Source of the DNA: Candidatus Melainabacteria bacterium
GTDB lineage: Bacteria; Cyanobacteriota; Vampirovibrionia; 2-02-FULL-35-15
Assembly: GCA_016178265.1 (NCBI GenBank)
Contig: JACOTS010000092.1
Coordinates: 1 to 48,186 of the forward strand
Length of the DNA: 48,186 nucleotides
Reading direction: 5' to 3'
Part shown: piece after piece, positions 1 through 48,186 of the stretch
Numbering within the stretch: position 1 is the first letter of the stretch
Layout: every line of letters begins with the position of its first letter
Notes under the pieces: generated by a model
What the model saw: the letters and a program-made list of their open reading frames with translations, nothing else
The model's database searches: none
What the model was told of the DNA's origin: nothing
Made by a program: the position numbers and the translations under genes

Positions 1-289
1 AATATAAATAATATTTACCTTTATAAAATGAGACGTCATGAACTCTGTAAGGACCATTCAAAGCCGGATCATATGGATCAGACAAGCTTACCAATCCCGG
101 GTTTGGCTCTATAGCCATATATAAGTGGCCATGAAGAAAACCTTCTGCTAATTTGTTGTAGTAAGTACCATGACTATTGTAGAAATCAAACTTATTATGT
201 GCTTCTGTTACAGTCCATAAGTAAAACATTACTGCTATCACTAATAATAAACTTCTTAGAATAGTCTTGATTGAAAAAATGTTTTGCAT
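1..289 (-). CDS. Membrane protein, N-terminal part only (gene runs off the left window edge); possibly a GT-C-type glycosyltransferase
   Basis: Not in the supplied ORF track. My own minus-strand translation from the ATG at 289-287 stays open to position 1: MQNIFSIKTILRSLLLLVIAVMFYLWTVTEAHNKFDFYNSHGTYYNKLAEGFLHGHLYMAIEPNPGLVSLSDPYDPALNGPYRVHDVSFYKGKYYLY. This is an N-terminal TM anchor followed by a loop. Co-oriented with the gene at 301-1260 and starts 11 nt after its stop. Family guess is from memory only. Confidence 0.4.
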   Translation of the reverse strand, partial: MQNIFSIKTILRSLLLVIAVMFYLWTVTEAHNKFDFYNSHGTYYNKLAEGFLHGHLYMAIEPNPGLVSLSDPYDPALNGPYRVHDVSFYKGKYYLY

Positions 290-300
290 ATTAGTAAGTA

Positions 301-18711: not shown

Positions 18712-19164
18712 TTAGTTTGTTACTAATTCTTCAGTTTTTAATTTAGTTTTTAATACTTTGCTGGCATCGAATTTATGAATTATTCTATGAATTAAAAAAT
18801 ATGTCGAAAACTTTCTATTCGGATTAAAGAACTGGTCACATAGAAAATGTGCTATTAAAGAAGAAGATATTCCAACCCTCCACGGCGTAAGTGATGAATC
18901 TAGCGTAAGTAAAAAGAATAACAGTACAAGTTCATATGAATGTAACGGAACATATAGTTTTCCACTTACCTTTTCATGATGAGCAGAATTCACTTTTTTC
19001 CAGTCCCACCTTTTTCCATGAGCATACAAATAATCAATTATGTGATCCAAATCTATAAGAGTACCAACTAAAAAGCTAGCTAAAGCAGGCCCAACTTCTC
19101 CATAAGCAGCATATATAAAAAGTCCTATACTTGCTGAAACCACAATATGTCCTGAAGTTCTCAT
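18712..19164 (-). CDS. Membrane-bound metal-dependent hydrolase family protein (YdjM/DUF457-like)
   Basis: The ORF track extends to 19272, but those first 36 codons are read through two palindromes. The ATG at 19164 gives MRTSGHIVVSASIGLF..., a typical start for this family. Several TM segments and His-rich motifs (DHIIDYLYAH, HH). Confidence 0.55.
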   Translation of the reverse strand: MRTSGHIVVSASIGLFIYAAYGEVGPALASFLVGTLIDLDHIIDYLYAHGKRWDWKKVNSAHHEKVSGKLYVPLHSYELVLLFFLLTLDSSLTPWRVGISSSLIAHFLCDQFFNPNRKFSTYFLIHRIIHKFDASKVLKTKLKTEELVTN

Positions 19165-19217
19165 AGTTCTAATATAATTATTCACTTGATATGTTAAGTA
19201 ACCGTTATCACTAAACC

Positions 19218-19245
19218 GGCAAATTAAATTCGCATTTAATTTGCC
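19218..19245. repeat. Perfect 12-bp palindrome with 4-nt loop
   Basis: GGCAAATTAAAT (19218-19229), loop TCGC, ATTTAATTTGCC (19234-19245). Exact reverse complements. Confidence 0.8.
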
Positions 19246-19257
19246 TTTGCACCAGCC

Positions 19258-19300
19258 GCTCGGCTTTGCCAAATAAATTGGACAAAGCCGAGCTTTATAT
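19258..19300 (+). terminator. Intrinsic-terminator-like hairpin with no upstream same-strand gene
   Basis: GCTCGGCTTTG (19258-19268), 14-nt loop, CAAAGCCGAGC (19283-19293), followed by TTTATAT on the plus strand. The minus-strand reading lacks a T-tract. Confidence 0.35.
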
Positions 19301-26123: not shown

Positions 26124-26238
26124 ATAGTTATTTTGTAACCTTTATAGAAACTTAATTTTTAAGGATTGCTAAACTCATACTCATTTAGTTAGAGTGATAT
26201 TAGACATTTATTATATTAACAAATATAAGGAATACCAA

Positions 26239-26616
26239 ATGAAAATTAGCCCTAATCAAGAACGTTTCATAAGAGCAATATCTACAGGGTTAGGAGGCAA
26301 TCCTCAAAATGCTTTTAACACTCTAAGAAGTGTAGAATCACTCCCACAATTAGGTCAACTTGCTGAAGCTACCCCAGATGCACAAGAAAATAATAAAACT
26401 TTAGGATGTATCGGTGAAGATGTATTAAATCCTACTAAACTTGATTTTAGGTATGGGGCCGGAAGCTGTGTTGTATTAGTTATGATGTTGGATGAAAATT
26501 CACTAGCTCAAAACAATGAGGGCACTGTTTGCCATTTAAGAGAATGGATTGATCAAATTACAGATGGAAAAGGCGGATCTGTATTTGAAAGAGCACTTGC
26601 AACACAAAGCAGCTAA
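26239..26616 (+). CDS. Hypothetical protein
   Basis: The ORF track starts at 26194. The ATG at 26239 follows AAGGAA. 125 aa, no family recognised. Confidence 0.5.
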   Translation: MKISPNQERFIRAISTGLGGNPQNAFNTLRSVESLPQLGQLAEATPDAQENNKTLGCIGEDVLNPTKLDFRYGAGSCVVLVMMLDENSLAQNNEGTVCHLREWIDQITDGKGGSVFERALATQSS

Positions 26617-27414: not shown

Positions 27415-29139
27415 ATGACGCTTCTTGCAGTACCAGTTGGTAGGGTAATTGCCGAAAGGCTACACACCACCAAACCTACTACTTTCGTACCACCTAAACT
27501 TCCCGTAAGAGAATCTTTAGTAGTTCATAGAAACGGACATCATGATTTTAAAGTACCAAGTGTATCTAATTTTCTTACTGGACATGGATATTTTGCAGAT
27601 GAGTTTAGAGATTTTGTAGATGGACATCCTCTTGAAAGCATAATTCTAAGACCGCTACATGAGCTTACTTCTACTACAGAACTGCAAAGCGTTTTGGATC
27701 ATATTGAATTTGAGTTAGGTTGCTACCCAAATGGTGCTATTCCTGCATCTACAAGACCTGAAAGCGGTTATTCAAAATTTGCATGGACAAGAGATATGGC
27801 AAATAAAACACTTGCAATGATAGAAGCAGGTGATTTTACCAATGCCAAAAAAGTAGTTTACAGGCTAGCCGAGTTTTACAATGCAAAGGAACAAAGAGAT
27901 AAACTTGTTTCATATCACTGGCATCCACATGGGGATCCTGCAGAGCCTGTTTTAAGATACCAGTCCGGTAATGGACATCCTCCAATAAGAGCTGCTATTG
28001 ATGATAAGGGCGAAATGGTGCACAGTAATCACCCATGGGCACATAACCAGTTTGATGCAATGGGCGCATGGTTATATACCACTTTTTATCTTGCTGATAT
28101 CTTAGGAGATCCTTCACACTCAAGACATGAGCCAAATTTTTATGAGCCTGACTTTCTTAAAAATCTTGACCATCACTTAAGTTTTGGAGATGGTCAAAAC
28201 AGAGATAACTCTGCTGATTCAATCTTTTCTGTAGCATTTAAATCCCTCAATAGAGTAAGAGTATGGGATAACCACGATGTAGGACCTTGGGAAGATGTAT
28301 GGGCAAGAAAAAGAGCCTCAAGTATTGGAATTTGCTTAGCTGCAGCAAAAACTGCTAAAGCACATTTAGAAAAAAACAATTGGTCTAACTTAAATATTTA
28401 TAATAGGGATGACTTTAAAGTTGAGCTTCAAAACTTAATGCATCAATGTGGTATAGCAATTCAACATAGAATTCCCGGTGATGGAAGAGAACCAACAGAA
28501 TGTGATATATTTCCATCTGATTCTGCTTTAACATTTCTTTTATACCCATATAATCCTGGGCTTACTAATGAACAAGAATTGTCTATTTTAAAGTCACTGT
28601 ATACACATAGAATGGGAGCTGTAGGTTTTACAAGAAGAAATGATGATGAATACTTAGGTATGGATTACCACACTAATTTACAAAGCCAAGGAATATATGC
28701 AAACAAGTTTGTCCCTGATTTTAAAGCGGCAGAGTGGACTCTATTTGATCCATATCTTGCTACCTACTATACAAATAAAGTACTTGAACAATTATTTAAA
28801 CACGGCACAATAGACAGAGACAGACTAGAGCTTGCAGAATTTCATCTTAGAAGATCTATGGCACACATTACAAAGGAAGATGAGAAATATACAAAAAGAT
28901 ATTACGTTGCGTCGGGAGAGACACTGAAAAAAGAACTAGTTAAAACTAATGGCAAACGCCTCCCAGAAGCTTACTTTTTTGATTCATTTGCAAATGATGA
29001 AAAAGGCAAATGGAGAGCAAATGAAAACACTCCTCTTCTTTGGACAGAAGCAAATTTTTTAATCTTGCTTAGAAAACAGCTTGAGCTTAAATCAATACTT
29101 GAAAGATATTTCCCTGATATTCATGCAATGGCTGCTTAA
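27415..29139 (+). CDS. Glycoside hydrolase family 15 (glucoamylase-like) protein
   Basis: 574 aa. FAWTRDMA and GPWEDVW motifs, equivalent to the WxRD and catalytic WEE regions of the GH15 (alpha/alpha)6 barrel. GAGGA Shine-Dalgarno. Confidence 0.65.
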   Translation: MTLLAVPVGRVIAERLHTTKPTTFVPPKLPVRESLVVHRNGHHDFKVPSVSNFLTGHGYFADEFRDFVDGHPLESIILRPLHELTSTTELQSVLDHIEFELGCYPNGAIPASTRPESGYSKFAWTRDMANKTLAMIEAGDFTNAKKVVYRLAEFYNAKEQRDKLVSYHWHPHGDPAEPVLRYQSGNGHPPIRAAIDDKGEMVHSNHPWAHNQFDAMGAWLYTTFYLADILGDPSHSRHEPNFYEPDFLKNLDHHLSFGDGQNRDNSADSIFSVAFKSLNRVRVWDNHDVGPWEDVWARKRASSIGICLAAAKTAKAHLEKNNWSNLNIYNRDDFKVELQNLMHQCGIAIQHRIPGDGREPTECDIFPSDSALTFLLYPYNPGLTNEQELSILKSLYTHRMGAVGFTRRNDDEYLGMDYHTNLQSQGIYANKFVPDFKAAEWTLFDPYLATYYTNKVLEQLFKHGTIDRDRLELAEFHLRRSMAHITKEDEKYTKRYYVASGETLKKELVKTNGKRLPEAYFFDSFANDEKGKWRANENTPLLWTEANFLILLRKQLELKSILERYFPDIHAMAA

Positions 29140-38621: not shown

Positions 38622-40151
38622 ATGGTGAATAAAAAAGCTACTGAATTAAAAGAACAAAAGCTAGGCGACATAGATGTTAAGTTATTTAAAAAACACGGCT
38701 ATGAGCTAATTGATTGGATAGCTGAATACCTGTCAAACATTGAAAAATACCCCGTTTTATCCCAAGTTAAGCCTGGTGATATTAAAAACAATCTTCCAAA
38801 ATCACCTCCTGAAAAAGGTGAAAGCATGGAAAAAATAATGGAAGATTTTAACAAATACATTGTTCCAGGTCTTACTCATTGGAATCATCCAGGATATTTT
38901 GCATATTTTTCTTGTACAAGTTCATACCCTGGAATACTTGCAGAGCTTCTTACCGCAGGGATAAATCAACAAGGCATGCTTTGGAGAACATCTCCTGCAC
39001 TTACAGAGGTAGAAGAAGTAACATTAGCTTGGCTTAGAGAGTTAATTGGACTGAAAGATGATTTTTTTGGAATAATTTATGATACTGCATCTATTTCTAC
39101 ACTGCATGCAATTGCAACTGCAAGAGAAGCTTTGAACTTAAAAATCAAAGAAGAAGGAATGATAAATAAAAAAGAACTTATGCCTCTTAAGTTATATACA
39201 TCTGAACAAACACACTCATCAATTGAAAAAGCAGCTATTACACTTGGAATAGGACAAAAAAACGTTAGAAAGGTAGCGGTTGATGATGCTTTCCAAATGG
39301 ATCCAAAAGCACTTATAAACTGTATTGAAGAAGATATTAAATCAGATTGTATACCATTTTGTGTTGTTGCAACAGCAGGAACTACCTCAACTACAAGCAT
39401 TGATCCAATCCCTGAAATTGCTGAGATTTGTAAAAAATACAAACTTTGGTTACATTTAGATGCTGCTTATCTTGGTATTGCAGCAATTGTACCTGAAATG
39501 AAACATATTACCGTAGGCTGGAATGAAGTTGATTCTTTTGTAGTAAATCCTCATAAGGGATTATTTACCCCGATGGATTTAAGTGCATTTTACTGTAAAA
39601 AGCCTGAGCTGCTTAAAAAAGCATTTAGTCTGGTTCCTGAGTATCTAAAAACAGATACAGGAGATGAAGCAAAAAATCTATATGATTATGGGATACAACT
39701 TGGAAGAAGATTTAGAGCACTTAAACTTTGGTTTATTATGCGTACTTTTGGAAAAGAGGGTTTAATAAATCGCATTCGTGAAACAATTAATCTTGCAAAA
39801 ACTTTTGCTAAGTGGGTAGAAGAAAGTGAGAAGTTTTATATCCTAGCTCCTGTTACAACAAGTTTGGTTTGTTTTAGATATCTCCCGAAAGACTTAAAAG
39901 AAAAGATAGAAAGAAATGAGAATGTAGAAGCTATTGAAGAATACTTAAACAAATTAAATGAAGAGATTATGAATGCAGTAAATGCAACTGGCAAGGTTTT
40001 TATATCTCATACCAAACTACACGGAAGATTTACGCTTAGGCTTGCTATTGCAAATCTTAGGACAACTGAAAGGCATATAAAAGATGCATGGGAAACATTG
40101 AACCAACTAGCACTAAAAATAGATAAAGAACTTAGAAGCACATTTATATAG
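38622..40151 (+). CDS. PLP-dependent aromatic-L-amino-acid decarboxylase (group II decarboxylase, DDC/TDC-like)
   Basis: 509 aa. HWNHPGYFAYFSCTSSYPGILAELL, SPALTEVEEVTLAWL, HLDAAYLG and NPHKGLF (PLP-lysine motif) closely parallel animal/plant DOPA/tryptophan decarboxylases. AAGGGG Shine-Dalgarno. Confidence 0.85.
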   Translation: MVNKKATELKEQKLGDIDVKLFKKHGYELIDWIAEYLSNIEKYPVLSQVKPGDIKNNLPKSPPEKGESMEKIMEDFNKYIVPGLTHWNHPGYFAYFSCTSSYPGILAELLTAGINQQGMLWRTSPALTEVEEVTLAWLRELIGLKDDFFGIIYDTASISTLHAIATAREALNLKIKEEGMINKKELMPLKLYTSEQTHSSIEKAAITLGIGQKNVRKVAVDDAFQMDPKALINCIEEDIKSDCIPFCVVATAGTTSTTSIDPIPEIAEICKKYKLWLHLDAAYLGIAAIVPEMKHITVGWNEVDSFVVNPHKGLFTPMDLSAFYCKKPELLKKAFSLVPEYLKTDTGDEAKNLYDYGIQLGRRFRALKLWFIMRTFGKEGLINRIRETINLAKTFAKWVEESEKFYILAPVTTSLVCFRYLPKDLKEKIERNENVEAIEEYLNKLNEEIMNAVNATGKVFISHTKLHGRFTLRLAIANLRTTERHIKDAWETLNQLALKIDKELRSTFI

Positions 40152-40319
40152 TATAAGTTTTACTAGAAAAAACAGAAAAATAAGCAGATTTTTATTGCTT
40201 TTAATTGAATTTTAACTATTTTAGAAGTAAATTCTTTAATTTAATCAAATTATTGATTTAATAACTTCAGGATTGAGGAATAACCCTATTAAAAGCTCAC
40301 CAATAGATTATAAATTTAT

Positions 40320-41303
40320 ATGTTGGAAAATTTAAAATATATTGTCGTGGATTTGTTAAGTAATTTTGATCTTAGACTAATTTGGCTTAATATTTTTAAT
40401 TCAAAGCTTAATCTACTCTTAGCATTAATCCCGTGCTTACTTTTGCTTCTCATATTAGAAGCAAAACATTTTGGCTGGAATAATTCGGCACTAAAAAGAC
40501 TAATGAATCCATCAAAGTCTGCACAATTAGATATAGCTTTAGTTATATTATATGCTTCAAGTTTAATCTCTATACTGACAATATTATTTTCTTTTGGTCT
40601 TAGTGAACTAATACCAATTAAAGTTAGAAAATTATTTGGTTTTGGTTTAATTAACTCGATAGATAATATCTATATTCAATATGCTGTCTATATTATCATT
40701 TACGACTTTTTATTCTATTGGAAGCACCGCTTATCACATACTATAAGTTGGTGGTGGCAGCTGCATAAATTGCATCACTCCGCTGAGGAACTTAACCTAA
40801 TTACTGCTGATAGGCTTCATCCACTTGATGAGGTTATAACAAGACTGTTTATGTGCTTGCCACTTGCAATTGCTGGTATTCCACTAGTAGATTTTTTGAT
40901 TCTAACTGTACTACACAGATCACACAGAATGTTAATTCACTCTATGCTGCCTTGGGATTTTGGTTGGCTAGGCAAATACATTTTAATATCACCTATCGCA
41001 CATAGAATACATCACTCAAAATTACCAGAACATACAAATAAAAACTTTAGCAACTCAACACCATTATGGGACAAATTGTTTGGAACTTGGTATGAGGGTA
41101 ACATAATAAATACATCTGTTGGAGTGGAACAAAATACGCATAATAATAAATTATGGTTTGTAGATATTTGGGATTCATACCTTGATTTTTGGAAATATCT
41201 ATGGAAAGATATCAGAATACTTATATTCAGAAAAAGTACTGTTGTTGATAGTTCAACAAGCATAATTATTCTTTTCTTAACTTATTTAGCTATTACAATT
41301 TAG
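40320..41303 (+). CDS. Fatty acid hydroxylase superfamily protein (sterol desaturase-like di-iron membrane enzyme)
   Basis: 327 aa. N-terminal TM segments and three histidine boxes: HRLSH, HKLHH, HRIHH. Confidence 0.8.
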   Translation: MLENLKYIVVDLLSNFDLRLIWLNIFNSKLNLLLALIPCLLLLLILEAKHFGWNNSALKRLMNPSKSAQLDIALVILYASSLISILTILFSFGLSELIPIKVRKLFGFGLINSIDNIYIQYAVYIIIYDFLFYWKHRLSHTISWWWQLHKLHHSAEELNLITADRLHPLDEVITRLFMCLPLAIAGIPLVDFLILTVLHRSHRMLIHSMLPWDFGWLGKYILISPIAHRIHHSKLPEHTNKNFSNSTPLWDKLFGTWYEGNIINTSVGVEQNTHNNKLWFVDIWDSYLDFWKYLWKDIRILIFRKSTVVDSSTSIIILFLTYLAITI

Positions 41304-41311
41304 CAAAGTCG

Positions 41312-42721
41312 TTAATTTAAGTTAGTACTTAGTGTTAGCTGATATATTTTTTCAAGCTTACGGCTTGCTATATCTGATTCAGGATTTAAATTAATAATAA
41401 CTCTATTAAATTGAAGGGTTTTGCCTTCATACTTATTGGGGTTACTAAAATATATAACTTTAGCTAAAGCTCTACACGATTTCTGCTTTTCCCTTTTACT
41501 ATGTTCTTTAGCAATTCGCCTAAGTAAAACATCCCATCTTGATGGATCAAATTGGTTAATCAATTTATCAACACTTAATGGTTCTTCTACTCCTTCGCTA
41601 TTAAAGAGAGAAATCTCCACTGTCTCTTTTGTTGAGGGATAAAAGTGATCAAAGCATGGATATACAGCAAAAGGCCATGAATCAATCTTATTAAAGCCAC
41701 AATAAATTACACAAACTATTATAAAAGTACTGATATAAATAGTGGCATTATGTTCATTAGTTATTCCTGTTGACCTAGCATAATTAATTCTCCTTTTCAA
41801 TATGTTTTCCCAATCAACAAAAGCAAAATATAGTACAAGCAAGTACCAAAATGATATTTTCATAAATACGTAAGTTACACTGTGAAAGATAAGTCCCATT
41901 ATCAACCAATATTTTCTATACTTGTCAGAAAATATCGCAAAAATAAAACTTATTTCAAATAAAATTACTAACAGTCCACCAAATTGGAGAAAAAATGGAT
42001 AATGATCAATTCTAAATAAAGGAGCAAAATCATTTAATCTAGCCCATCTATCATACAAAATAAAATTTAAGTTATCCCCTAAAAACCAATCAACCCCACA
42101 TGACCAAAGTTTCCAAAATCCGGGGAAGAAATATATTAATCCAAGTATCAACCATATAAATCTTATAGGCATAGAGTACATTTCTGGTGCATAGGACTTA
42201 ATTTTAGATTTATTTATTAGAATTAAACTATCAATAGATAGCAAGTCACCACATCTAGCGGTCGACAATATAAAAGAGCACCATAACAAGTGATGGATAT
42301 GATAGCTTTTCCCATATAACTGCGGAATCCCAAGTACATACAATCCTAAAAGTGAAGCTAGAATCATTGATGGCCTTGTAAAAAAGCCTATCATAGAAGT
42401 AAAACAAAAAAAAATGAATAATTGTTTTGCAACTAGTACTAGTTTGCTGTTAACAGGAAATAAGTTTGTAAAATAACCAGAGTCATAAATTAGTTCATCT
42501 GGCAAACTTGAGAGCCAGTAAGAATTATTAAAGCCTTTAAAAGACACTAAAATCAACGCACAAAAGAGGATAATTCTAAAAATAGCTAAGCTTAACATAG
42601 AGGATCTTTGTGGAAACAAAAAGTGCATTAATCTTGTAAAAAGATTTTGCTTTCTAGAAACATACAATAAAAATATACCTAATAAAAGTAAAAATATAAT
42701 TTGAGTAATTAATAGTTCCAT
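41312..42721 (-). CDS. HTTM-domain membrane protein (vitamin K-dependent gamma-carboxylase homolog), paralog A
   Basis: 469 aa. N-terminal SLAIFRIILF motif typical of HTTM domains, multiple TM segments, CGDLLSIDSLI, PIRFIWLILGLIYF, RIDHYP. About 130-aa C-terminal soluble domain. Confidence 0.55.
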   Translation of the reverse strand: MELLITQIIFLLLLGIFLLYVSRKQNLFTRLMHFLFPQRSSMLSLAIFRIILFCALILVSFKGFNNSYWLSSLPDELIYDSGYFTNLFPVNSKLVLVAKQLFIFFCFTSMIGFFTRPSMILASLLGLYVLGIPQLYGKSYHIHHLLWCSFILSTARCGDLLSIDSLILINKSKIKSYAPEMYSMPIRFIWLILGLIYFFPGFWKLWSCGVDWFLGDNLNFILYDRWARLNDFAPLFRIDHYPFFLQFGGLLVILFEISFIFAIFSDKYRKYWLIMGLIFHSVTYVFMKISFWYLLVLYFAFVDWENILKRRINYARSTGITNEHNATIYISTFIIVCVIYCGFNKIDSWPFAVYPCFDHFYPSTKETVEISLFNSEGVEEPLSVDKLINQFDPSRWDVLLRRIAKEHSKREKQKSCRALAKVIYFSNPNKYEGKTLQFNRVIINLNPESDIASRKLEKIYQLTLSTNLN

Positions 42722-42881
42722 ACAGTTAATTGTTAAAGATTTTCTCTATTATTTAAATTCATTTTTATCATATTAATAAGCCATTGTATATCACCATTTA
42801 TCTATTATTAACAACCTTAAGTAGGAATTTATACACAATTAATGTATTCTATAAACACAGATCTCGCGTAAAAGAAATTTC

Positions 42882-43937
42882 ATGGCTAACAAAAGAAAAA
42901 ATATACAAGAATTAAAAATAAATACAATTAATTTGAATCCTCCTATATTCATTGTAGGGGCAGAGAAATCCGGTACTACTTTACTAAGAAAAATTTTAGG
43001 AAAGCATCATAACATTTATGAAATAAAGGCAGAAACCGAGCTATTTAGAAAATTCAAACCACCTATTTATAGTTATTTAAACAAGCTTGAAAAAAATAAA
43101 GAATTTGAAACCCTTATTAAAACAATGCTCACATTTCTTCTATATAAACATGATGGGGCAGTAAATTCATTGCTTCGTAAAGAATATCCCGGTAATGTAG
43201 TTGAGCTCTACAAAGAAATAATTAATCTTAATGAATTAGCTGAGTTAAGAAATAAATACAATGTTTTCAATTTTTGCGCTAACTTTTTAACAATAAAAGA
43301 AACCAAAAAAAGATGGGTTGAGAAGACTCCTTCACATGTAAGAGGAATTAATCATATACTATCCTACTACCCCACAGCAAAAATTATAATCATTTATAGG
43401 GATCCAAGAGCTGTATATGCTTCATGGAAGAATTACAAAAGATTCAAAGAAAGATATTTAAGCAACATAGTAATCTGTACACTTGTTTGGTTAATTGCAA
43501 CTGAAATTAGTCTAAAAACATCAACTGAATTTAGTTCACATTTGTATCAAATACGATATGAAGATTTAGTTGCTGATCCAATTAAAGAAATAAAAAAATT
43601 GTGTGATTTTATTCAAGAGGATTTTGATCCAATGATGATTGATGTTGACGTAGTAAATAGTGCCTACAAAGAACATGAGGTTCAAGAGGGTATACAAAAA
43701 AAATTTAACAATATGTGGGCAGAAAAACTAACAAATTTAGAGATCCTTTTTATTGAGCTAATAACTCGAAAAAAAAGAGAAATACTTGGATATCCTGATG
43801 TAACTGATAAAAACCCAATTTATACCTCTATGCTTTTACCACTGTTTGTAATATATGTAACAATCCAAGCATTAGTTTTTATATTAGCAAAAAGATGGAT
43901 TTGGATTAAGAATAATTTAATGCTGTGGAAAAAATAA
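42882..43937 (+). CDS. PAPS-dependent sulfotransferase with C-terminal transmembrane anchor
   Basis: 351 aa. IFIVGAEKSGTTLL (5'-phosphosulfate-binding loop), WVEKTPSH, IIIYRDPRAVYASW (3'-phosphate-binding motif). C-terminal hydrophobic helix LLPLFVIYVTIQALVFILA. Confidence 0.8.
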   Translation: MANKRKNIQELKINTINLNPPIFIVGAEKSGTTLLRKILGKHHNIYEIKAETELFRKFKPPIYSYLNKLEKNKEFETLIKTMLTFLLYKHDGAVNSLLRKEYPGNVVELYKEIINLNELAELRNKYNVFNFCANFLTIKETKKRWVEKTPSHVRGINHILSYYPTAKIIIIYRDPRAVYASWKNYKRFKERYLSNIVICTLVWLIATEISLKTSTEFSSHLYQIRYEDLVADPIKEIKKLCDFIQEDFDPMMIDVDVVNSAYKEHEVQEGIQKKFNNMWAEKLTNLEILFIELITRKKREILGYPDVTDKNPIYTSMLLPLFVIYVTIQALVFILAKRWIWIKNNLMLWKK

Positions 43938-43962
43938 AACTGTAAAATTGCTTCATAATAAC

Positions 43963-45309
43963 TTAAGGAGTTACTTTGTTAGATTTGTAAAAATATAACA
44001 AGAATAGAGCTATAGAAATAGTGGTGTGTATAAGAGTTGAATAGACAATGCCAATAATACCAAACAAATTAATGCAAATAATATCAAAAAATACATTTAG
44101 TATTACTCTAACCACACTAGTAGCCAGAAGAAACGTGGTTAATTTATTTATTACATAATAGTTCACGAAAATCTTAAATATCATTGCTGGTATCAGTTGA
44201 TAAATAAATACTCCTACTAAACTAGCAATAAGCATTACTTGCTCAGCATTAATATTTCCTCTGTTAAATATAATGTTGGCAATGGAAAATTTAAACAAGA
44301 ATACTATTATACAAATTGGCAAGCAAAATAAAATTGTTTTTTTAGAAGCATCTAATATTTTATTTCTCAGATTGCTCATTGGTTCTAAAAAATAAGAATC
44401 CGACCAATAAGAAAGAAGCACTTTAGAAAATATTACTGCAATTGCATTGTAAAATATTAAATAAATTTTCTCTGCATATTCTAATATTGATAAGTTCCCT
44501 TCCGCAAATATAAATGCAATAGTTTTATCTATTAGTGGATTTATTGCTGTAAGAACCGTAAAAGCAATTTGAAAAAAAGCAATTTTAAAGAAATGTTTTA
44601 ATCGATCTGTTGTGTCTTCATTTAATAAAGAAACAAATTTGTATCCTAATTTTTTTACTGAAACAAAGTATAAATTTAAAAGTAAAACAAATTCGCCAAT
44701 TAAATAACCTATTGCTACAGAATAAATATTAAGCTTAGTGCTAAACAATAAAAATATAATAATAATAGTCAGTGATCTGAATGCCAATGATAATGGATAA
44801 ATCCAGAATTTCTTGTGATAGTTTAAATATCCTTCAAAAATTCCTCCATAAGTATAAAAAAGTACTGTTGGAGACAGAATCAGAATAAAGTCGAATATTG
44901 CTTTTGTATCACGCTGAATTGATGTATTAACTAAGTTTAAAAAAAATTTGGACAAAACCAAGAAAATAATCAAAATAATGAGAATTACGAAGAAAGATGT
45001 TTTTATTATATTGGTAATAAAAACATTTAGATCTTCTTTTTTTGACTTTTTTTCAGCAATAAATGGAACTAATGTTAATTGTCCTGCTGATGAAAAAACA
45101 ACACATAGAAACCAAATGACTGCATAAGCAATAAAGAATGCATCAGTTTGATCACTTACGCCATATTTAATAGCTATAAAATAAGGAATAAGGAAACCTA
45201 TGCACTTACTTGTTATATGCCATAGAGATGTATAGAATGTATCAAAAGCAATTGAGTCAGTCTTAAATGAAGCTAAAATCTTTTTTATAAAATTAATTTT
45301 ATATTCCAT
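43963..45309 (-). CDS. MOP-superfamily flippase, MurJ/MviN-like
   Basis: 448 aa, polytopic. N-terminal GVSDQTDAFFIAYAV resembles the MurJ signature (G.S...DAF..A). Shorter than canonical MurJ. Confidence 0.6.
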   Translation of the reverse strand: MEYKINFIKKILASFKTDSIAFDTFYTSLWHITSKCIGFLIPYFIAIKYGVSDQTDAFFIAYAVIWFLCVVFSSAGQLTLVPFIAEKKSKKEDLNVFITNIIKTSFFVILIILIIFLVLSKFFLNLVNTSIQRDTKAIFDFILILSPTVLFYTYGGIFEGYLNYHKKFWIYPLSLAFRSLTIIIIFLLFSTKLNIYSVAIGYLIGEFVLLLNLYFVSVKKLGYKFVSLLNEDTTDRLKHFFKIAFFQIAFTVLTAINPLIDKTIAFIFAEGNLSILEYAEKIYLIFYNAIAVIFSKVLLSYWSDSYFLEPMSNLRNKILDASKKTILFCLPICIIVFLFKFSIANIIFNRGNINAEQVMLIASLVGVFIYQLIPAMIFKIFVNYYVINKLTTFLLATSVVRVILNVFFDIICINLFGIIGIVYSTLIHTTISIALFLLYFYKSNKVTP

Positions 45310-45367
45310 ATTTTAATCAACCTGTTTTTCTTTATTTTTTGCATAAAGTAATTAACAGTATAATTGG

Positions 45368-46759
45368 CTAATCTATTTTTAGTGAAATTATAGTTTTCAA
45401 GTTAATAGGATTGTTATTATATTCTTCAGGAATAGTAGAAAATAAACCTTCATAAAACACAATATAGGATGCTTCTCTAATATCTGGAATATTATTAAAT
45501 AATAACTTACTAATTGCATTGCATAGCTTTATTTGTTCAGCCTTAGATTTAGAATTCGCGACATAGTTTAAAATATATTCCCATCTACCAGGTTCAATTT
45601 TTTTTTTGATTATGCGAGTATTAATATCAATTTCTTTTCCATCAACATTAAAAGCTTTAATAATCAATGTTTTTTTTCTAAACTGCTTAAAATTAATGAA
45701 TCGATATTGGAGATCTTTGTTGCTAAAATTCGGATAAGCGGAAAAAGGCCATGATTTAATTTCCCTAAACCCAACATATGATTGTATAAGAATTAAAGTT
45801 ACGCCAGTTAAAACTATTGGTACAATTGATTTTTTAACAGTATTAACAGGGCTAGGTTTTACTACATTTTTAATTAGGCTCCCAAAATTAATAAAAGATA
45901 GATAACAACATTGTAGGGTCCAAAAAGAAATGTGCAAGAAGACTAAAGTCAAATTATGAAAAAAGATTCCACAAATAATAGCATATTTTCTCAAATTGTC
46001 AGAAAATATTAAAAATATAAACAATAATTGAAACATGACAATAAGGAATGGAAGACATCTTAATAAAATAGGATAGTGATCAATTCTAAGAATAGGGATG
46101 TTATTGCCAACAAACCAAGTAAACCAATAAGAGTAAAGGATATGTTGAAAGAAAGGAGTATCTGTTAACCAATAATGTTTACTTCCTAGGAGTTTCCATA
46201 TACCTGCATAGAAGTATATAAGTCCAATGAGTATCCATACAAACCTAATAGGAAGTGCATAGAGCACACTGGTTGTATCTTTAATTAAGTTTATAGTCTT
46301 AGTTTTTCTATAATCATCAATAATGCAATCTAGAGACAAACTATCACCACACTTAGACATCAATAACAGTAGTTGAAACATAAACAAATGATGATGAGCA
46401 TGTTGAATCTTTCCAAAAATATGAGTTAGGGCAATTAAGTAAAAACCAGAAACAATGGAAACTCCTATTGAAATATTAGTAAAAAGGCCAAGAAGCGCAA
46501 AGATTGTTGAAATTTTAAATATTATGATAAATATAACTATCAATTGATGTGTGTATGGAATACATTCTTTAATCCACCTTACAGCTGGTTCAGCGATTCG
46601 TAACTCTTCAGGGATATTATAAAACCAAATATAATCAATGTTAAATGAGGAAATAATTAACGTTGAAAATACTACTATTCTAAACATGGCAAGGTTCAAT
46701 GAAGAATCTTTAGCAGTAAAGAATTTGTTGCCTTTAAGGAATAGATCTCTTATAAACAT
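45368..46759 (-). CDS. HTTM-domain membrane protein (vitamin K-dependent gamma-carboxylase homolog), paralog B
   Basis: 463 aa. SLNLAMFRIVVF, CGDSLSLDCII, PIRFVWILIGLIYF, RIDHYP and IFSDNLRKY are collinear with paralog A. 10-nt overlap with the upstream SDR gene. T10 tract at 45598-45607 (A10 on the coding strand). Confidence 0.55.
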   Translation of the reverse strand: MFIRDLFLKGNKFFTAKDSSLNLAMFRIVVFSTLIISSFNIDYIWFYNIPEELRIAEPAVRWIKECIPYTHQLIVIFIIIFKISTIFALLGLFTNISIGVSIVSGFYLIALTHIFGKIQHAHHHLFMFQLLLLMSKCGDSLSLDCIIDDYRKTKTINLIKDTTSVLYALPIRFVWILIGLIYFYAGIWKLLGSKHYWLTDTPFFQHILYSYWFTWFVGNNIPILRIDHYPILLRCLPFLIVMFQLLFIFLIFSDNLRKYAIICGIFFHNLTLVFLHISFWTLQCCYLSFINFGSLIKNVVKPSPVNTVKKSIVPIVLTGVTLILIQSYVGFREIKSWPFSAYPNFSNKDLQYRFINFKQFRKKTLIIKAFNVDGKEIDINTRIIKKKIEPGRWEYILNYVANSKSKAEQIKLCNAISKLLFNNIPDIREASYIVFYEGLFSTIPEEYNNNPINLKTIISLKID

Positions 46760-47745
46760 TTCGCAAAAACCATATTATTACTTTCTATTTGCTCAACTGC
46801 TATTTTGATCCCATCATAAAAGCCAACCTTAGGATAATATCCAAGTTCTTCTTTAGCCTTATTTATACTACATTTAAAATTCCTAGACCAGTCCCATGCA
46901 AGATGCAATTCAGGATTATAAAATCTTACTTTTTGCATTGCCAAATCAATGATTTTATAAGTAACAGATTCATACGGAGGAATAGGTATTAATTTAGGCT
47001 TAAAATTCACCTTGAGCAGCTCACATAGAATCTTATAGATGTCCATGATCTTGTAGTTATCCATATCTGCAATAAAATATGTTTGTCCATTTGCCTTTTT
47101 GCTCTTGCCTGCCAACAATAGTGCATCGATACAATTATCAATGTTACAAAGACTCCTAGAAGATTTACCACTGCCAAAAATTAGAATATATCCTTTTTTT
47201 ACCATCTTTAAAAAATTAGTTTGTCTAGGCGGACCATCAACCCCATATAGCCAGTTTGGTCTTATAATAACCGTATTAATTTTGTTTTCTGTATTATATT
47301 TATTTAGAATTTGTTCAGCCTGTAACTTACTACGTCCATAATGATAATAAGGCGTTGGTGTATCAGATTCCTTGTACTCTGTATCTTTACTTAACCTCAT
47401 CGCTGCAGAAGAAGAGCTTATGTATACAAATTTTTCAACGTTTTTCTTAATAGCATGCTCAACTAAATTCTTAGTTCCTAGATAATTAACTTCATAAAAT
47501 TGTTGAACCTTCTTAGGATGAATTATTCCTGCACAGTGATAAACAATAGATATCCCCTCGCAAACATTTACAAGTGAATCGTTCCTAGTAACATCTGCAA
47601 TAAAAACTTCAGCTCCAATGTTGCGTAGATCACTAGTATCAACATTTGGAAGAGCTATGCACCGAACCCCTACATTATCTTCTATTAGCTTTTTAGCTAA
47701 TTTTGTTCCTAACCATCCAGGTGTCCCAGTAATTAAAGCTTTCAT
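46750..47745 (-). CDS. NAD(P)-dependent epimerase/dehydratase, 3-beta-hydroxysteroid dehydrogenase-like extended SDR
   Basis: 331 aa. ITGTPGWLG (GxxGxxG variant), YISSSSA, YGRSKLQAE (YxxxK), RPNWLYG. Confidence 0.75.
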   Translation of the reverse strand: MKALITGTPGWLGTKLAKKLIEDNVGVRCIALPNVDTSDLRNIGAEVFIADVTRNDSLVNVCEGISIVYHCAGIIHPKKVQQFYEVNYLGTKNLVEHAIKKNVEKFVYISSSSAAMRLSKDTEYKESDTPTPYYHYGRSKLQAEQILNKYNTENKINTVIIRPNWLYGVDGPPRQTNFLKMVKKGYILIFGSGKSSRSLCNIDNCIDALLLAGKSKKANGQTYFIADMDNYKIMDIYKILCELLKVNFKPKLIPIPPYESVTYKIIDLAMQKVRFYNPELHLAWDWSRNFKCSINKAKEELGYYPKVGFYDGIKIAVEQIESNNMVFAKCL

Positions 47746-47840
47746 TTTTTTATCCTAAGAATCTATCATACTAACAAATATACAATGGTAAAATTTCAAA
47801 TTGTAAGATCATCCCCATTCTACATAAGATTTTAAACAAT

Positions 47841-48186
47841 TTATGCTTCATTGTTTTTATTATCAGAACAATTAAATTGTTCTATTGAAAAATCTTTTGC
47901 TAAAAAATATTTTATCTCATAAATTCTATTGTTTTCTTCAATGATTGGAAGTCCAGGAATTAAGTATATTTCACGCCCAGCTTTAAAAGCTTCGGTCACT
48001 GTAACTGCTCCTGGCTTTGTAATAATAATCCCACACTTTTTCATAATAGATACCAACGAGTGAACTTCGTTGTAAATAAACACTCTTGAATCCCCTTTAA
48101 ATTCTTTGGTTAGCTTTCTAAACAATCGAATATTCGCACCACAAACCACATGTAATTTCAGATCTGTGCAGTGCTTATAAAGTAAT
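47841..48186 (-). CDS. Glycosyltransferase, C-terminal part only (GT28 / MGDG-synthase / UgtP-like); gene continues beyond the right window edge
   Basis: The ORF track starts at a GTG at 48149, but the frame stays open to 48186 (upstream residues ...LLYKHCTDLKLH). IITKPGAVTVTEAFKAGREIYLIPGLPIIEENN resembles the C-terminal nucleotide-sugar-binding motif of MurG/MGDG-synthase-type enzymes. Confidence 0.5.
   Translation of the reverse strand, partial: LLYKHCTDLKLHVVCGANIRLFRKLTKEFKGDSRVFIYNEVHSLVSIMKKCGIIITKPGAVTVTEAFKAGREIYLIPGLPIIEENNRIYEIKYFLAKDFSIEQFNCSDNKNNEA

What the first reader, a model, noticed from the sequence alone, without database searches (positions are those of the whole stretch)
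40320..48186. Uncharacterised envelope/lipid locus: two HTTM (gamma-carboxylase-like) proteins bracketing a sulfotransferase and a MurJ-like flippase, plus lipid hydroxylase, 3beta-HSD-like SDR and MGDG-synthase-like GT
Seven consecutive genes are all membrane-embedded or lipid/sugar-acting. They are a fatty-acid-hydroxylase family enzyme with three His boxes, HTTM-A, a PAPS-type sulfotransferase with a C-terminal TM anchor, a MurJ/MviN-like MOP flippase, HTTM-B, an extended SDR of the 3beta-HSD type, and a GT28/MGDG-synthase-like glycosyltransferase. HTTM-B overlaps the SDR gene by 10 nt. Spacers are 8-160 nt. Bacterial HTTM proteins are homologs of the eukaryotic vitamin K-dependent gamma-glutamyl carboxylase and have no established role. 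I am not aware of a described pathway that couples them to a sulfotransferase and a flippase. My working inference is that a glycolipid or lipid-linked envelope molecule is assembled (GT, SDR), hydroxylated and/or sulfated, and flipped. The HTTM proteins would then act on the outer face of the membrane. Most of these enzyme types are better known from eukaryotic endomembranes, as is the adjacent aromatic amino acid decarboxylase.
Basis: partly seen in the sequence, partly recalled or inferred. Interest (0 to 1): 0.75.

Follow-up and report, generated by a model that had tools for sequence, protein, structure and literature searches.

The report
Conserved HTTM–hydroxylase–glycosyltransferase envelope gene set
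A Melainabacteria contig carries a real, recurring cluster of membrane enzymes, built around two bacterial relatives of the human vitamin K-dependent carboxylase, that most likely makes and decorates an unknown envelope glycolipid or lipid-linked glycan, giving a concrete system in which to learn what these bacterial enzymes do.

Summary
All seven ORFs are at the stated coordinates, with the stated overlap and spacers. Pfam confirms FA_hydroxylase, sulfotransferase, MurJ and extended SDR. The GT is only a remote GT28-like fragment.

The two 460-aa proteins get no Pfam hit. They are still HTTM/GGCX-fold proteins: the family profile hits human GGCX at E=3e-8, and GGCX is the only PDB fold match. 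The catalytic Lys is invariant. HTTM-A keeps the acidic partner residue (Glu), but HTTM-B has Gln. The carboxylase-specific lumenal domain is absent.

The linkage is conserved in at least four independent, rearranged loci (GC 27–63%). The persistent core is HTTM + GT28-like GT + radical SAM/SPASM, plus FA_hydroxylase in this clade. The radical SAM gene probably lies just beyond the contig end. Flippase, sulfotransferase, SDR and aromatic amino acid decarboxylase are recurrent accessories.

Across 80 other loci, this HTTM subfamily sits in surface-glycan clusters. The HTTM–hydroxylase pairing has a 2026 giant-virus precedent.

Best reading: a lipid-anchored glycoconjugate tailoring pathway with a quinol/O2-dependent HTTM step. 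The product is unknown. Interest is moderate to high.

The parts
38622..40151 (+). Aromatic L-amino acid (Tyr/DOPA-type) PLP decarboxylase; probable accessory member of the gene set
   Evidence: Pfam Pyridoxal_deC 6.5e-101. Closest solved structures are Tyr/DOPA decarboxylases, E 2e-110. PLP-Lys motif NPHK309. A 72%-identical copy lies directly upstream of MurJ-HTTM in the rearranged locus L002.
40320..41303 (+). Di-iron membrane FA_hydroxylase / 'sterol desaturase' family enzyme, convergent with HTTM-A (8-nt gap)
   Evidence: Pfam FA_hydroxylase 3.9e-31, 108.7 bits vs cutoff 31. His boxes at 136, 149 and 228. Ten invariant His residues in the clade. Orthologs at 50-60% identity are always next to an HTTM gene: L002, L084, L086. 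More distant FAHs never are: 0 of 80 loci.
41312..42721 (-). HTTM-A: GGCX-fold polytopic membrane protein with an intact Lys204/Glu256/His141 centre, plus a C-terminal domain of about 125 aa with no known fold
   Evidence: No Pfam hit. Homologs carry PF05090. Family profile vs GGCX E 3.3e-8. AF2 pLDDT 89.7. Foldseek finds only GGCX. K204 is invariant in 126/126 and E256 is present in 124/126. It is the ortholog of the HTTM in L002, L084 and L086.
42722..42881 (.). 160-nt divergent intergenic region between HTTM-A and the sulfotransferase (presumed promoters)
   Evidence: Gene coordinates. No credible small ORF. No Rfam match. The promoter scan is not above shuffled background.
42882..43937 (+). 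PAPS-type sulfotransferase with a C-terminal membrane anchor
   Evidence: Pfam Sulfotransfer_3 7.8e-32. PAPS motifs and TM 313-340. Closest solved relatives are the OLS/CurM activating sulfotransferases, Stf1 and TPST. Sulfotransferases lie near HTTM genes in L086 and in 7 of 80 other HTTM loci, versus 0 of 80 control loci.
43963..45309 (-). MurJ/MVF-family MOP flippase
   Evidence: Pfam MurJ 1.5e-38. Below the NCBIfam MurJ equivalog cutoff, 124.9 vs 235.55. Full-length match to Thermosipho MurJ, E 9.6e-27. Homologs are adjacent to HTTM/FAH in L002 (37% identity) and L086 (24% identity).
45368..46759 (-). HTTM-B: divergent paralog (32% identity to HTTM-A) with Lys189 retained but Gln244 in place of the near-invariant Glu; overlaps the SDR gene by 10 nt
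   Evidence: BLASTP against HTTM-A 9e-69. Residue mapping. An HTTM-SDR adjacency also occurs on the P0004 contig/L003. Publicly annotated as a hypothetical protein.
46750..47745 (-). Extended SDR (NAD-dependent epimerase/dehydratase / 3beta-HSD superfamily)
   Evidence: Pfam Epimerase 2.4e-32 and 3Beta_HSD 4.9e-28. Best NCBIfam match is HpnA, 7.9e-30, below cutoff. GTPGWLG7 and YGRSK136 motifs. Orthologs occur in L084 (47%) and L003 (53%).
47841..48186 (-). C-terminal third of a GT28-like GT-B glycosyltransferase, truncated by the contig end
   Evidence: Glyco_tran_28_C 2.9e-4, below cutoff. 64%, 49% and 39% identical to full-length GTs of 332-352 aa in L002, L084 and L086. Those GTs align with UgtP-type diglucosyl-DAG synthase across positions 7-313 of 388. 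In those loci the GT abuts a radical SAM/SPASM gene.
2..292 (-). N-terminal fragment of a conserved unknown polytopic membrane protein that also occurs in the related loci (possible further member; runs off the other contig end)
   Evidence: tblastn: 45% identity over 110 aa to the L002 698-aa protein (E 1e-22), and E 3e-7 to the L084 462-aa protein. No Pfam or NCBIfam match for this family.

Best explanation
Window 38.6-48.2 kb is one copy of a recurrent, laterally spread gene set for building and tailoring a lipid-anchored glycoconjugate of the cell envelope (a glycolipid or a lipid-linked glycan).

Shown:
- The gene families are as listed in the parts.
- They recur together in independent, rearranged loci.
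- HTTM-A belongs to the GGCX fold and keeps its quinol-activating residues.
- The GGCX carboxylation and substrate-binding domain is absent.
- This HTTM subfamily is generally embedded in surface-glycan clusters.

Inferred mechanism:
- On the cytoplasmic face, the GT28-like GT-B enzyme puts a sugar on a membrane lipid acceptor.
- The extended SDR and the radical SAM/SPASM enzyme remodel the sugar. The radical SAM gene is predicted to lie just beyond the contig end.
- The di-iron FA_hydroxylase introduces a hydroxyl on the lipid or hydrocarbon part.
- The membrane-anchored PAPS sulfotransferase sulfates a hydroxyl.
- The decarboxylase may supply an aromatic amine substituent.
- The MurJ-type flippase moves the product outward.
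- HTTM-A then uses menaquinol and O2 at the outer face, through a Lys204/Glu256/His141 centre that works like the vitamin K epoxidase half-reaction of GGCX. This would generate the strong base or oxidant for a final modification. The FA_hydroxylase is its obligate partner, as proposed for the giant-virus epoxidase-desaturase modules.
- HTTM-B (Glu to Gln) is a catalytically altered paralog or a non-catalytic partner.

The product and the exact HTTM chemistry are unknown.
For: Family assignments.

Catalytic mapping: K204 = GGCX K218, invariant in 126/126. E256 = D263, present in 124/126. H141 = H160 (residue roles from PMC12589487 and PMC13486548).

Recurrence in independent loci with shuffled gene order and GC from 27% to 63%:
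- L002: AADC-MurJ-HTTM-FAH-GT-rSAM.
- L084: rSAM-GT-x-SDR-FAH-HTTM-U462.
- L086: SULT-rSAM-GT-HTTM-FAH-MurJ, followed by GT-C-like genes, Wzy_C and a lipid A acyltransferase.
- L170: HTTM-GT28_C GT-rSAMs.
- P0004 contig: HTTM-SDR.

Specificity: 0 of 80 distant-FAH loci have an HTTM, and 0 of 80 broad-HTTM loci have an FAH.

General neighbourhood of the HTTM subfamily within 4 kb, out of 80 loci: GT4 28, GT2 15, ABC ATPase 15, PhyH 13, epimerase 8, WelO5-like 7, rSAM/SPASM 4 (only 4 nt away), sulfotransferase 4-7, Wzy_C 4.

Precedent for HTTM + sterol desaturase fusion or adjacency in giant viruses: PMC13486548. The best viral fold match is that very fusion protein, A0A5K0UBG6.
Against: - No product, substrate or activity is known for any component.
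- The GT is only remotely GT28-like and lies below family cutoffs.
- The genes lie on both strands in at least four transcription units, and no promoter or terminator signal rises above background. Co-expression is therefore untested.
- No VKOR, DsbB or DCC quinone-recycling partner is present in the 48-kb window, unlike the viral modules.
- Whether the organism makes menaquinone or PAPS is unknown.
- The MurJ-like gene could simply be the housekeeping lipid II flippase.
- L001 is the same population as the window and adds no independent support.
- L002, L003 and L084 are all low-GC and may be relatives of the window organism.
- The control set used for the enrichment tests comes from a different collection and is shorter in total.
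Confidence: 0.45

Rival explanations
1. Peptide or protein modification system (RiPP-like). HTTM acts on a peptide, as GGCX, MloH and the linaridin HTTM proteins do. The radical SAM/SPASM enzyme, a TPST-like sulfotransferase, the decarboxylase and the GT would be peptide-tailoring enzymes.
For: All experimentally grounded HTTM functions involve peptide or amino-acyl substrates: GGCX, MloH and linaridin clusters. SPASM radical SAM enzymes are often peptide maturases (NCBIfam hit lists). The sulfotransferase has weak similarity to TPST1/2.
Against: No candidate precursor ORF lies in the intergenic regions. No protease or peptide ABC exporter is present. The radical SAM domain starts at about residue 40, which leaves no room for an RRE leader-binding domain. 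The GGCX propeptide-binding and lumenal domain is absent. The neighbours of the subfamily are overwhelmingly glycan genes. The closest sulfotransferase relatives act on hydroxyacyl chains, not on tyrosine.
Confidence: 0.12
2. Modified-quinone pathway. The set derivatises a menaquinone-type isoprenoid quinone itself: hydroxylation by the FA_hydroxylase, then sulfation and/or glycosylation, then flipping. HTTM would bind or epoxidise the naphthoquinone head. This is analogous to sulfomenaquinone synthesis in M. tuberculosis (Cyp128 + Stf3).
For: HTTM/GGCX binds naphthoquinol (PMC12589487). The hydroxylate-then-sulfate logic with an adjacent hydroxylase/sulfotransferase pair is established for sulfomenaquinone (PMC7404182). 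The sulfotransferase family includes mycobacterial Stf1 (2zq5, 4.6e-7) and a relative that JGI names omega-hydroxy-beta-dihydromenaquinone-9 sulfotransferase (P0348).
Against: The Stf3-type label is an automated annotation on a 29%-identical relative. The sulfotransferase is not part of the persistent core: it is absent from L002, L084 and L170. The idea does not explain the radical SAM enzyme, the SDR, the decarboxylase or the glycan-cluster context. No quinone biosynthesis genes are in the window.
Confidence: 0.12
3. Galactolipid-type membrane lipid synthesis. The GT28-like enzyme makes a glucosyl- or galactosyl-diacylglycerol, and FA_hydroxylase + SDR act together as a split version of the cyanobacterial glucolipid epimerase MgdE. 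The HTTM genes would be incidental.
For: MgdE consists of an N-terminal fatty acid hydroxylase domain plus a Rossmann oxidoreductase domain (PMC4742570). Melainabacteria are the sister group of Cyanobacteria (my background knowledge; not tested here). The GT's best matches are diglucosyl-DAG synthases. SDR and FAH are adjacent in L084.
Against: None of the 116 FAH homologs is fused to an SDR. MgdE's reductase is of the classical FabG-like type, whereas this one is an extended SDR. The SDR is missing from L002 and L086 although FAH, HTTM and GT are all present. HTTM, not the SDR, is the invariable neighbour of FAH.
Confidence: 0.08
4. No functional unit: a chance run of unrelated membrane and sugar genes, with the MurJ-like gene being the housekeeping lipid II flippase.
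For: The genes are on both strands in several transcription units, with no detectable shared regulatory signal. MurJ matches a bona fide lipid II flippase over its full length. A separate glycan cluster and housekeeping genes fill the rest of the contig.
Against: The same protein clades recur together in at least four independent loci, with different gene orders and GC from 27% to 63%. Distant members of the same families are never linked, 0 of 80 in each direction.
Confidence: 0.05

Closest known systems
Giant-virus vitamin K redox module: VKOR + GGCX-like 'vitamin K epoxidase' + sterol desaturase (Collins et al., PNAS 2026, PMC13486548)
   Same: An HTTM/GGCX-core protein is fused to, or adjacent in opposite orientation to, an FA_hydroxylase/'sterol desaturase' with HXXHH boxes. 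The catalytic Lys (K218) is retained and D263 is replaced by Glu. GGCX residues 374-418 and the lumenal carboxylase domain are absent. The best viral fold match of HTTM-A is the Yasminevirus fusion protein itself.
   Different: No VKOR in the 48-kb window. These are bacterial proteins with an extra C-terminal domain of about 125 aa and unknown fold. They are embedded with a GT, a radical SAM/SPASM enzyme, a flippase, a sulfotransferase and an SDR. No sequence-level link to viral contigs was found. The viral function is itself only a hypothesis.
[quoted passage not shown]
   Same: The same transmembrane HTTM fold (profile E 3e-8; Foldseek E 1.5e-8, TM 0.52-0.55). The Lys/acid/His quinol-activating centre and the SxD and R276/H287 positions are conserved.
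   Different: 15-16% identity. The TMD-PBD linker and the roughly 350-aa lumenal propeptide/Gla-binding domain cannot be detected. No Gla-type substrate is evident. HTTM-B lacks the acidic partner residue.
MloH (malonomycin) and the linaridin HTTM proteins (CypH/CrdG type)
   Same: Bacterial HTTM-domain enzymes encoded inside biosynthetic gene clusters. Some linaridin clusters also carry an SDR.
   Different: Those act on peptide or aminoacyl intermediates in PKS-NRPS or RiPP clusters. Here there is no precursor peptide and no NRPS or PKS, and the context is glycan or lipid.
Lipid-linked glycan and glycolipid pathways (UgtP/YpfP-type GT28 glycolipid synthases; MurJ/Wzx MOP flippases; Wzy_C)
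   Same: A GT-B enzyme that aligns with diglucosyl-DAG synthase, a MurJ-family flippase, and Wzy_C/GT-C-like neighbours in L086.
   Different: All matches are far below the equivalog cutoffs. No known pathway of this kind includes an HTTM, an FA_hydroxylase or a radical SAM/SPASM enzyme.
Sulfomenaquinone (Cyp128 + Stf3) and the CurM/OLS activating sulfotransferases
   Same: A hydroxylase is paired with a PAPS sulfotransferase that acts on a lipid hydroxyl. The closest solved sulfotransferases are OLS/CurM and Stf1.
   Different: The hydroxylase here is a di-iron membrane enzyme, not a P450. There is no PKS context, and the substrate is unknown.
MgdE, the cyanobacterial glucolipid epimerase
   Same: It combines a fatty acid hydroxylase-type membrane domain with a Rossmann oxidoreductase to act on a glycolipid.
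   Different: MgdE is a fusion with a classical SDR. Here the genes are separate, the SDR is of the extended type and is not always present, and no fused relatives were found.

Membership tests
HTTM / VKG_Carbox superfamily (PF05090) | Match to the Pfam model above the gathering score | tested here: not met
   No Pfam or NCBIfam hit for either protein, even at E<=10. Many homologs at E 1e-50 to 1e-83 do carry PF05090.
HTTM / VKG_Carbox superfamily (PF05090) | Profile-level homology and fold shared with the GGCX transmembrane core | tested here: met
   Family profile vs GGCX chains: E 3.3e-8 over GGCX residues 47-300. AF2 model pLDDT 89.7. Foldseek finds 16 GGCX entries at E 1.5e-8 to 1e-3 with TM 0.52-0.55; the next hit is at E 0.2.
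HTTM / VKG_Carbox superfamily (PF05090) | Catalytic Lys (GGCX K218) and its acidic partner (D263) | tested here: met
   HTTM-A has K204 and E256, and Lys is invariant in 126/126. HTTM-B has K189 but Q244, so it meets this feature only in part.
[quoted passage not shown] | Linker residues about 374-418 and the lumenal propeptide/Glu-binding domain required for carboxylation | tested here: not met
   A profile of the region after residue 300 finds no GGCX chain at E<=10. The isolated C-terminal domain model (core pLDDT >90) has no PDB neighbour; best E 0.14.
[quoted passage not shown] | Quinol- and O2-dependent epoxidation coupled to CO2 addition | not testable with these tools
   This needs biochemistry: menaquinone epoxide formation and 13C-bicarbonate incorporation.
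Giant-virus VKOR-VKE-desaturase module | HTTM core fused or adjacent to an FA_hydroxylase/sterol desaturase | tested here: met
   The pair is convergent with an 8-nt gap in the window. The adjacency is conserved in L002, L084 and L086.
Giant-virus VKOR-VKE-desaturase module | Adjacent VKOR for quinone recycling | tested here: not met
   Pfam scans of every ORF of 130 aa or more in 1-38 kb, the locus genes, and three smaller ORFs from the gaps found no VKOR, DsbB or DCC.
FA_hydroxylase (PF04116) | Pfam match above cutoff and the histidine-box di-iron motifs | tested here: met
   108.7 bits vs cutoff 31. HRLSH, HKLHH and HRIHH motifs. Ten invariant His residues in the clade. No named equivalog: OlsE scores 84 vs 475 bits.
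PAPS sulfotransferase (Sulfotransfer_3 / _1) | Pfam match above cutoff and the 5'-PSB and 3'-PB PAPS-binding motifs | tested here: met
   111.7 bits vs cutoff 27. AEKSGTT27 and RDPRAVYAS173 (reading these as the PAPS-binding motifs rests on my knowledge of the family).
MurJ lipid II flippase (TIGR01695 equivalog) | Score above the curated equivalog cutoff | tested here: not met
   124.9 vs 235.55 bits. Membership of the Pfam MurJ family is met, 133 vs 27.4 bits. There is a full-length match to Thermosipho MurJ, E 9.6e-27.
GT28 / MGDG-synthase-like glycosyltransferase | Glyco_tran_28_C above cutoff and an MGDG_synth or Glyco_transf_28 N-terminal domain | tested here: not met
   The window fragment scores 21.3 and the L002 ortholog 20.5, against a cutoff of 22 bits. 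No N-terminal domain hit. UgtP-type NCBIfam models score 58-63 vs 500 bits. The resemblance is remote, but it spans the whole length.
3beta-HSD-type SDR | A specific assignment to 3beta-HSD rather than to sugar-nucleotide epimerase/dehydratase | tested here: inconclusive
   Epimerase scores 112.7 and 3Beta_HSD 98.4 bits, both above cutoff. PDB neighbours mix UDP-sugar epimerases and NSDHL at similar E-values. HpnA and OleD are below cutoff.
RiPP cluster with a radical SAM/SPASM maturase | Precursor peptide ORF and an RRE/leader-recognition domain | tested here: not met
   No credible small ORF. The radical SAM domain starts near residue 40 in the orthologs. No specific maturase family is matched.
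MgdE glucolipid epimerase | FA_hydroxylase domain fused to a classical SDR domain | tested here: not met
   No fusion among the 116 FAH homologs. The SDR here is of the extended type, whereas MgdE is FabG-like.

The most novel reading that the evidence does not exclude
This HTTM subfamily has about 1,900 representative clusters across many phyla, and its members are publicly annotated as 'hypothetical' or merely 'HTTM domain-containing'. It may be an unrecognised class of quinol/O2-driven enzymes that modify surface glycans or glycolipids on the outer face of the membrane. The chemistry could be carboxylation or some other base- or oxidant-requiring C-H chemistry on a sugar or lipid. These enzymes would work together with iron oxygenases (FA_hydroxylase here; PhyH or WelO5-like enzymes elsewhere) and radical SAM enzymes. 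On this reading the Melainabacteria locus is the bacterial counterpart of the giant-virus epoxidase-desaturase module. Vitamin K-type chemistry would then have a widespread non-protein substrate in bacteria.
Probability: 0.25. Interest if true: 0.85.

Novelty: new variant of a known kind. Interest (0 to 1): 0.6.

Why it matters
What bacterial HTTM proteins do has been open since the domain was named in 2004. The only grounded examples act on peptides.

This locus and its relatives provide three things:
- A compact, conserved and transferable gene set in which HTTM has fixed partners: a di-iron hydroxylase, a GT-B glycosyltransferase and a radical SAM/SPASM enzyme.
- A natural catalytic variant. 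HTTM-B carries Glu to Gln next to an intact paralog.
- A link to the giant-virus epoxidase-desaturase modules.

Together with the finding that the whole subfamily lives in surface-glycan clusters, this makes the question directly testable by heterologous expression, lipidomics or glycomics, and detection of quinone epoxide.

If the HTTM step acts on a glycolipid or glycan, it would extend vitamin K-dependent chemistry beyond proteins. It would also reveal a new envelope component in the non-photosynthetic sister lineage of Cyanobacteria.

Tried and rejected
1. Direct Pfam/NCBIfam and PDB sequence searches with the single HTTM proteins found nothing. A family profile was needed.
2. Split-MgdE idea for FAH + SDR: rejected as the main explanation. 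There are no fusions, the SDR class is wrong, and the SDR is not constant.
3. Peptide-substrate search: no credible small ORFs in the 160-168-nt spacers.
4. Rfam scan of the whole window: no hits. The promoter/terminator scan was not above shuffled background, so the operon structure is unresolved.
5. The search for a VKOR, DsbB or DCC partner in the window found none.
6. Viral contig scan with the family motif: no match.
7. The FAH-anchored metagenome scan returned only distant FAHs (40% identity or less) with no linked partners. It was useful only as a control.
8. C-terminal domain: no sequence or structural neighbour, so the substrate-binding part stays uninterpretable.
9. Tests of general linkage between HTTM and the window's FAH, MurJ or GT across 80 genome loci were negative.
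10. L001 was first taken as a related genome. It proved to be the same population (partner proteins 99-100% identical) and was discounted.
11. The literature searches found no paper that links HTTM proteins to polysaccharide or glycolipid clusters.

Full report
**Provenance and layout.** The window is a complete 48,186-nt contig of a Candidatus Melainabacteria MAG (locus tags HYR97_; proteins MBI1858495-99). HTTM-B is publicly annotated only as 'hypothetical protein'. Positions 0.3-17 kb hold a separate sugar-nucleotide/glycan cluster, and 17-38 kb hold housekeeping genes. The finding occupies the right end. GC falls from 32-35% to 26-31% there, which may simply reflect the membrane-protein composition.

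**Checking the observation.** All seven ORFs, the 10-nt HTTM-B/SDR overlap and the spacers are as described.
- Pfam confirms FA_hydroxylase (3.9e-31), Sulfotransfer_3 (7.8e-32), MurJ (1.5e-38) and an extended SDR (Epimerase 2.4e-32, 3Beta_HSD 4.9e-28).
- The His boxes and PAPS motifs and the C-terminal anchor of the sulfotransferase are present.
- The GT is a 114-aa C-terminal fragment, just below the Glyco_tran_28_C cutoff. Its full-length orthologs elsewhere (332-352 aa) align over their whole length with UgtP-type diglucosyl-diacylglycerol synthase, but far below the cutoff.
- The SDR cannot be assigned specifically to 3beta-HSD rather than to sugar-nucleotide epimerases.

**Are the two 460-aa proteins HTTM?** Neither matches any Pfam or NCBIfam model, even at E<=10, and a single-sequence PDB search found nothing. 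They are paralogs with 32% identity. Three independent routes establish the assignment:
- Homologs at E 1e-50 to 1e-83 carry PF05090, and many are fused to a DCC (PF04134) domain.
- A 49-sequence family profile hits human GGCX at E 3.3e-8 over GGCX residues 47-300.
- A high-confidence AF2 model (pLDDT 89.7) matches only GGCX structures in the PDB (16 entries, E 1.5e-8 to 1e-3, TM 0.52-0.55). The next hit is noise.

**Catalytic anatomy.** I mapped the profile alignment onto the roles described in the GGCX structure papers.
- Lys204 of HTTM-A corresponds to the catalytic base K218 and is invariant in 126/126 relatives.
- Glu256 corresponds to D263 and is Glu in 124/126.
- His141 corresponds to H160.
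- The SxD, R276 and H287 positions are also conserved.
- HTTM-B is one of only two sequences with Gln at the D263 position. In GGCX, D263 substitutions other than Glu abolish activity, so HTTM-B is probably catalytically altered.
- After the HTTM core comes one more TM helix, a conserved DSWPF..YP.F motif and a domain of about 125 aa. This region has no detectable sequence similarity to the GGCX carboxylation linker or lumenal domain. The domain folds confidently on its own but has no structural neighbour.

These proteins therefore keep the quinol-activating ('epoxidase') half of GGCX but not the demonstrable carboxylase or substrate-binding half.

**Is the clustering conserved?** Yes, but only within a specific protein clade.
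- L001 is the same population as the window and was discounted.
- L002 (GC 31%): AADC-MurJ-HTTM-FAH-GT-radical SAM/SPASM.
- L084/85 (GC 27%): rSAM/SPASM-GT-unknown-SDR-FAH-HTTM-unknown polytopic protein.
- L086 (GC 63%): sulfotransferase-rSAM/SPASM-GT-HTTM-FAH-MurJ, followed by two GT-C-like genes, Wzy_C and a lipid A acyltransferase.
- The P0004 contig/L003: HTTM-SDR.
- L170/171 (GC 49%): HTTM-GT28_C GT (overlapping) followed by five radical SAM genes, without FAH.

The gene order differs in every case and protein identities are 24-60%, so the linkage is under selection.

The persistent core is HTTM + GT28-like GT + radical SAM/SPASM, plus FAH in this clade, where it is always the direct neighbour of HTTM-A's ortholog. 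In L002 and L084 the radical SAM gene sits immediately upstream of the GT. The window ends inside the GT, so its radical SAM gene most likely lies just beyond the contig end (inference). The aromatic amino acid decarboxylase, a Tyr/DOPA-decarboxylase type at E 2e-110, stays attached in the rearranged L002 locus and probably belongs to the set.

The other end of the window (2-292, minus strand) encodes the N-terminus of the same unknown polytopic protein seen in L002 and L084.

**How general is it?**
- In 80 HTTM-anchored loci from reference genomes of many phyla, there is no FAH, MurJ-like gene or U698-type protein, by tblastn and by HMM. There is one GT28-like GT.
- Radical SAM (6), sulfotransferase (7) and extended SDR (13) genes are modestly enriched relative to 80 FAH-anchored control loci (0, 0 and 1; p = 0.028, 0.014 and 0.001). 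The control set is shorter in total and comes from another collection.
- Conversely, none of the 80 distant-FAH loci has an HTTM.
- Unbiased clustering of neighbours within 4 kb of the HTTM genes, annotated with Pfam, shows the general habitat of the subfamily. That habitat is surface-glycan biosynthesis together with non-heme iron oxygenases. Counts out of 80 loci: GT4 28, GT2 15, ABC ATPase 15, PhyH dioxygenase 13, epimerase 8, WelO5-like oxygenase 7, rSAM/SPASM 4 (only 4 nt away), Wzy_C 4 and DegT-type aminotransferase 4.
- The subfamily has about 1,900 representative clusters at 50% identity, of which 658 are at E<=1e-30.

**Comparison with what is known.** The closest precedent is the giant-virus module described in August 2026 (PMC13486548). 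In that module a GGCX-like 'vitamin K epoxidase' retains K218, has D263 replaced by Glu and lacks residues 374-418. It is fused to, or lies in opposite orientation beside, a 'sterol desaturase' (the FA_hydroxylase family), next to a VKOR. The best viral fold match of HTTM-A is exactly the Yasminevirus fusion protein. The window differs in several ways. It has no VKOR, DsbB or DCC. Its HTTM proteins carry an extra C-terminal domain. The context is GT, radical SAM, flippase, sulfotransferase and SDR.

Other bacterial HTTM precedents, MloH and the linaridin clusters, act on peptide-type substrates. Here there is no precursor ORF and no RRE on the radical SAM enzyme, and the genomic context is glycan biosynthesis.

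The sulfotransferase's closest solved relatives are the CurM/OLS enzymes, which sulfate a hydroxyacyl chain, and mycobacterial Stf1. One relative carries an automated Stf3 (sulfomenaquinone) label. In the sulfomenaquinone pathway a hydroxylase and a sulfotransferase act in turn on menaquinone. That is an attractive but speculative analogy for the FAH + sulfotransferase pair.

The MgdE (FA-hydroxylase + Rossmann) analogy for FAH + SDR was tested and found weak.

**Verdict.** This is an uncharacterised, conserved envelope or lipid-type gene set containing HTTM proteins, but its core is HTTM + GT + radical SAM (+ FA_hydroxylase), not HTTM + sulfotransferase + flippase.

'Gamma-carboxylase-like' applies only to the quinol-activating core. 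The two paralogs are not equivalent, and the HTTM-hydroxylase pairing now has a published viral precedent.

My best mechanistic reading, at a confidence of about 0.45, is assembly and tailoring of a lipid-anchored glycoconjugate with a menaquinol/O2-dependent HTTM step coupled to the di-iron hydroxylase. Peptide modification, quinone derivatisation and galactolipid synthesis are less likely rivals. No product or activity is known, and co-transcription, quinone supply and PAPS supply could not be tested from this contig.

Noticed in passing
window 2-292 (- strand): The left contig end encodes the N-terminus of a homolog of an unknown polytopic membrane protein. That protein recurs in the related loci (L002 6470-8563; L084 7432-8820) and has no Pfam or NCBIfam match. 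It continues the minus-strand glycan operon, so both contig ends carry pieces of the same recurrent gene set.
   Followed up: partly
window 301-16976: A separate sugar-nucleotide/glycan cluster: two epimerases, GFO/IDH/MocA oxidoreductases, an SDR, two GT2s, two methyltransferases, a PMT_2-like GT-C, GHMP kinase + nucleotidyltransferase, SIS + HAD (heptose-type), a transaldolase-like gene, an amine oxidase-like flavoprotein and UDP-glucose 6-dehydrogenase. It could supply precursors to the focal locus.
   Followed up: partly
window 45368-46759 (HTTM-B residue 244): HTTM-B has Gln where 124 of 126 family members have Glu (the counterpart of GGCX D263). It also departs at two other near-invariant positions (W147 to M, G209 to K). 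Only one other sequence (P0060) shares the Gln.
   Followed up: yes
window 40001-48186: GC content drops to 26-31% across the locus, against 32-35% for the rest of the contig. This could reflect membrane-protein codon composition or lateral origin. The same module exists at 63% GC in L086.
   Followed up: partly
L017 1119-4304 and the other Crocinitomicaceae/Flavobacteriales loci (L021, L030, L037, L041, L048, L054, L055, L062, L064, L068): In Bacteroidota, HTTM genes sit next to PhyH dioxygenases, WelO5-like 2OG oxygenases, a Wzt-like ABC ATPase and, in L017, a 1,062-aa UbiA-GT4-SGNH fusion protein. A second type of iron oxygenase thus recurs beside HTTM.
   Followed up: partly
L008, L030, L037, L068: A radical SAM protein with an N-terminal SPASM/twitch-type domain lies about 4 nt from the HTTM gene. 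This suggests translational coupling in lineages unrelated to the window.
   Followed up: no
L170 3015-12498: An HTTM gene overlaps a GT28_C glycosyltransferase. It is followed by five radical SAM genes, a DegT-type aminotransferase, an AMP-binding enzyme, an ApbA-type reductase and a methyltransferase. This is a radical SAM-rich variant of the module without FA_hydroxylase.
   Followed up: partly
L005 11933 and L086 2818-4167: Another unknown protein of about 449 aa, soluble by hydropathy and with no Pfam hit, recurs near HTTM and sulfotransferase genes in two unrelated loci (27% identity, E 2e-33).
   Followed up: no
homolog list of window 42882-43937: Several Melainabacteria relatives of the sulfotransferase are fused to a class I methyltransferase domain (about 550-580 aa; for example P0252). 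One relative carries an automated 'omega-hydroxy-beta-dihydromenaquinone-9 sulfotransferase' label.
   Followed up: no
window 27415-29139 (+), 26194-26616 (+), 18712-19272 (-): Three ORFs (574, 140 and 186 aa) have no significant Pfam match. The 574-aa protein has only a sub-threshold Glyco_hydro_15 hit.
   Followed up: no
homolog list of HTTM-A: A large share of the family is fused at one end to a DCC/DUF393 thiol-disulfide oxidoreductase-like domain (PF04134). The window's proteins instead carry the unknown C-terminal domain. The DCC domain might stand in for VKOR-type quinone recycling.
   Followed up: no
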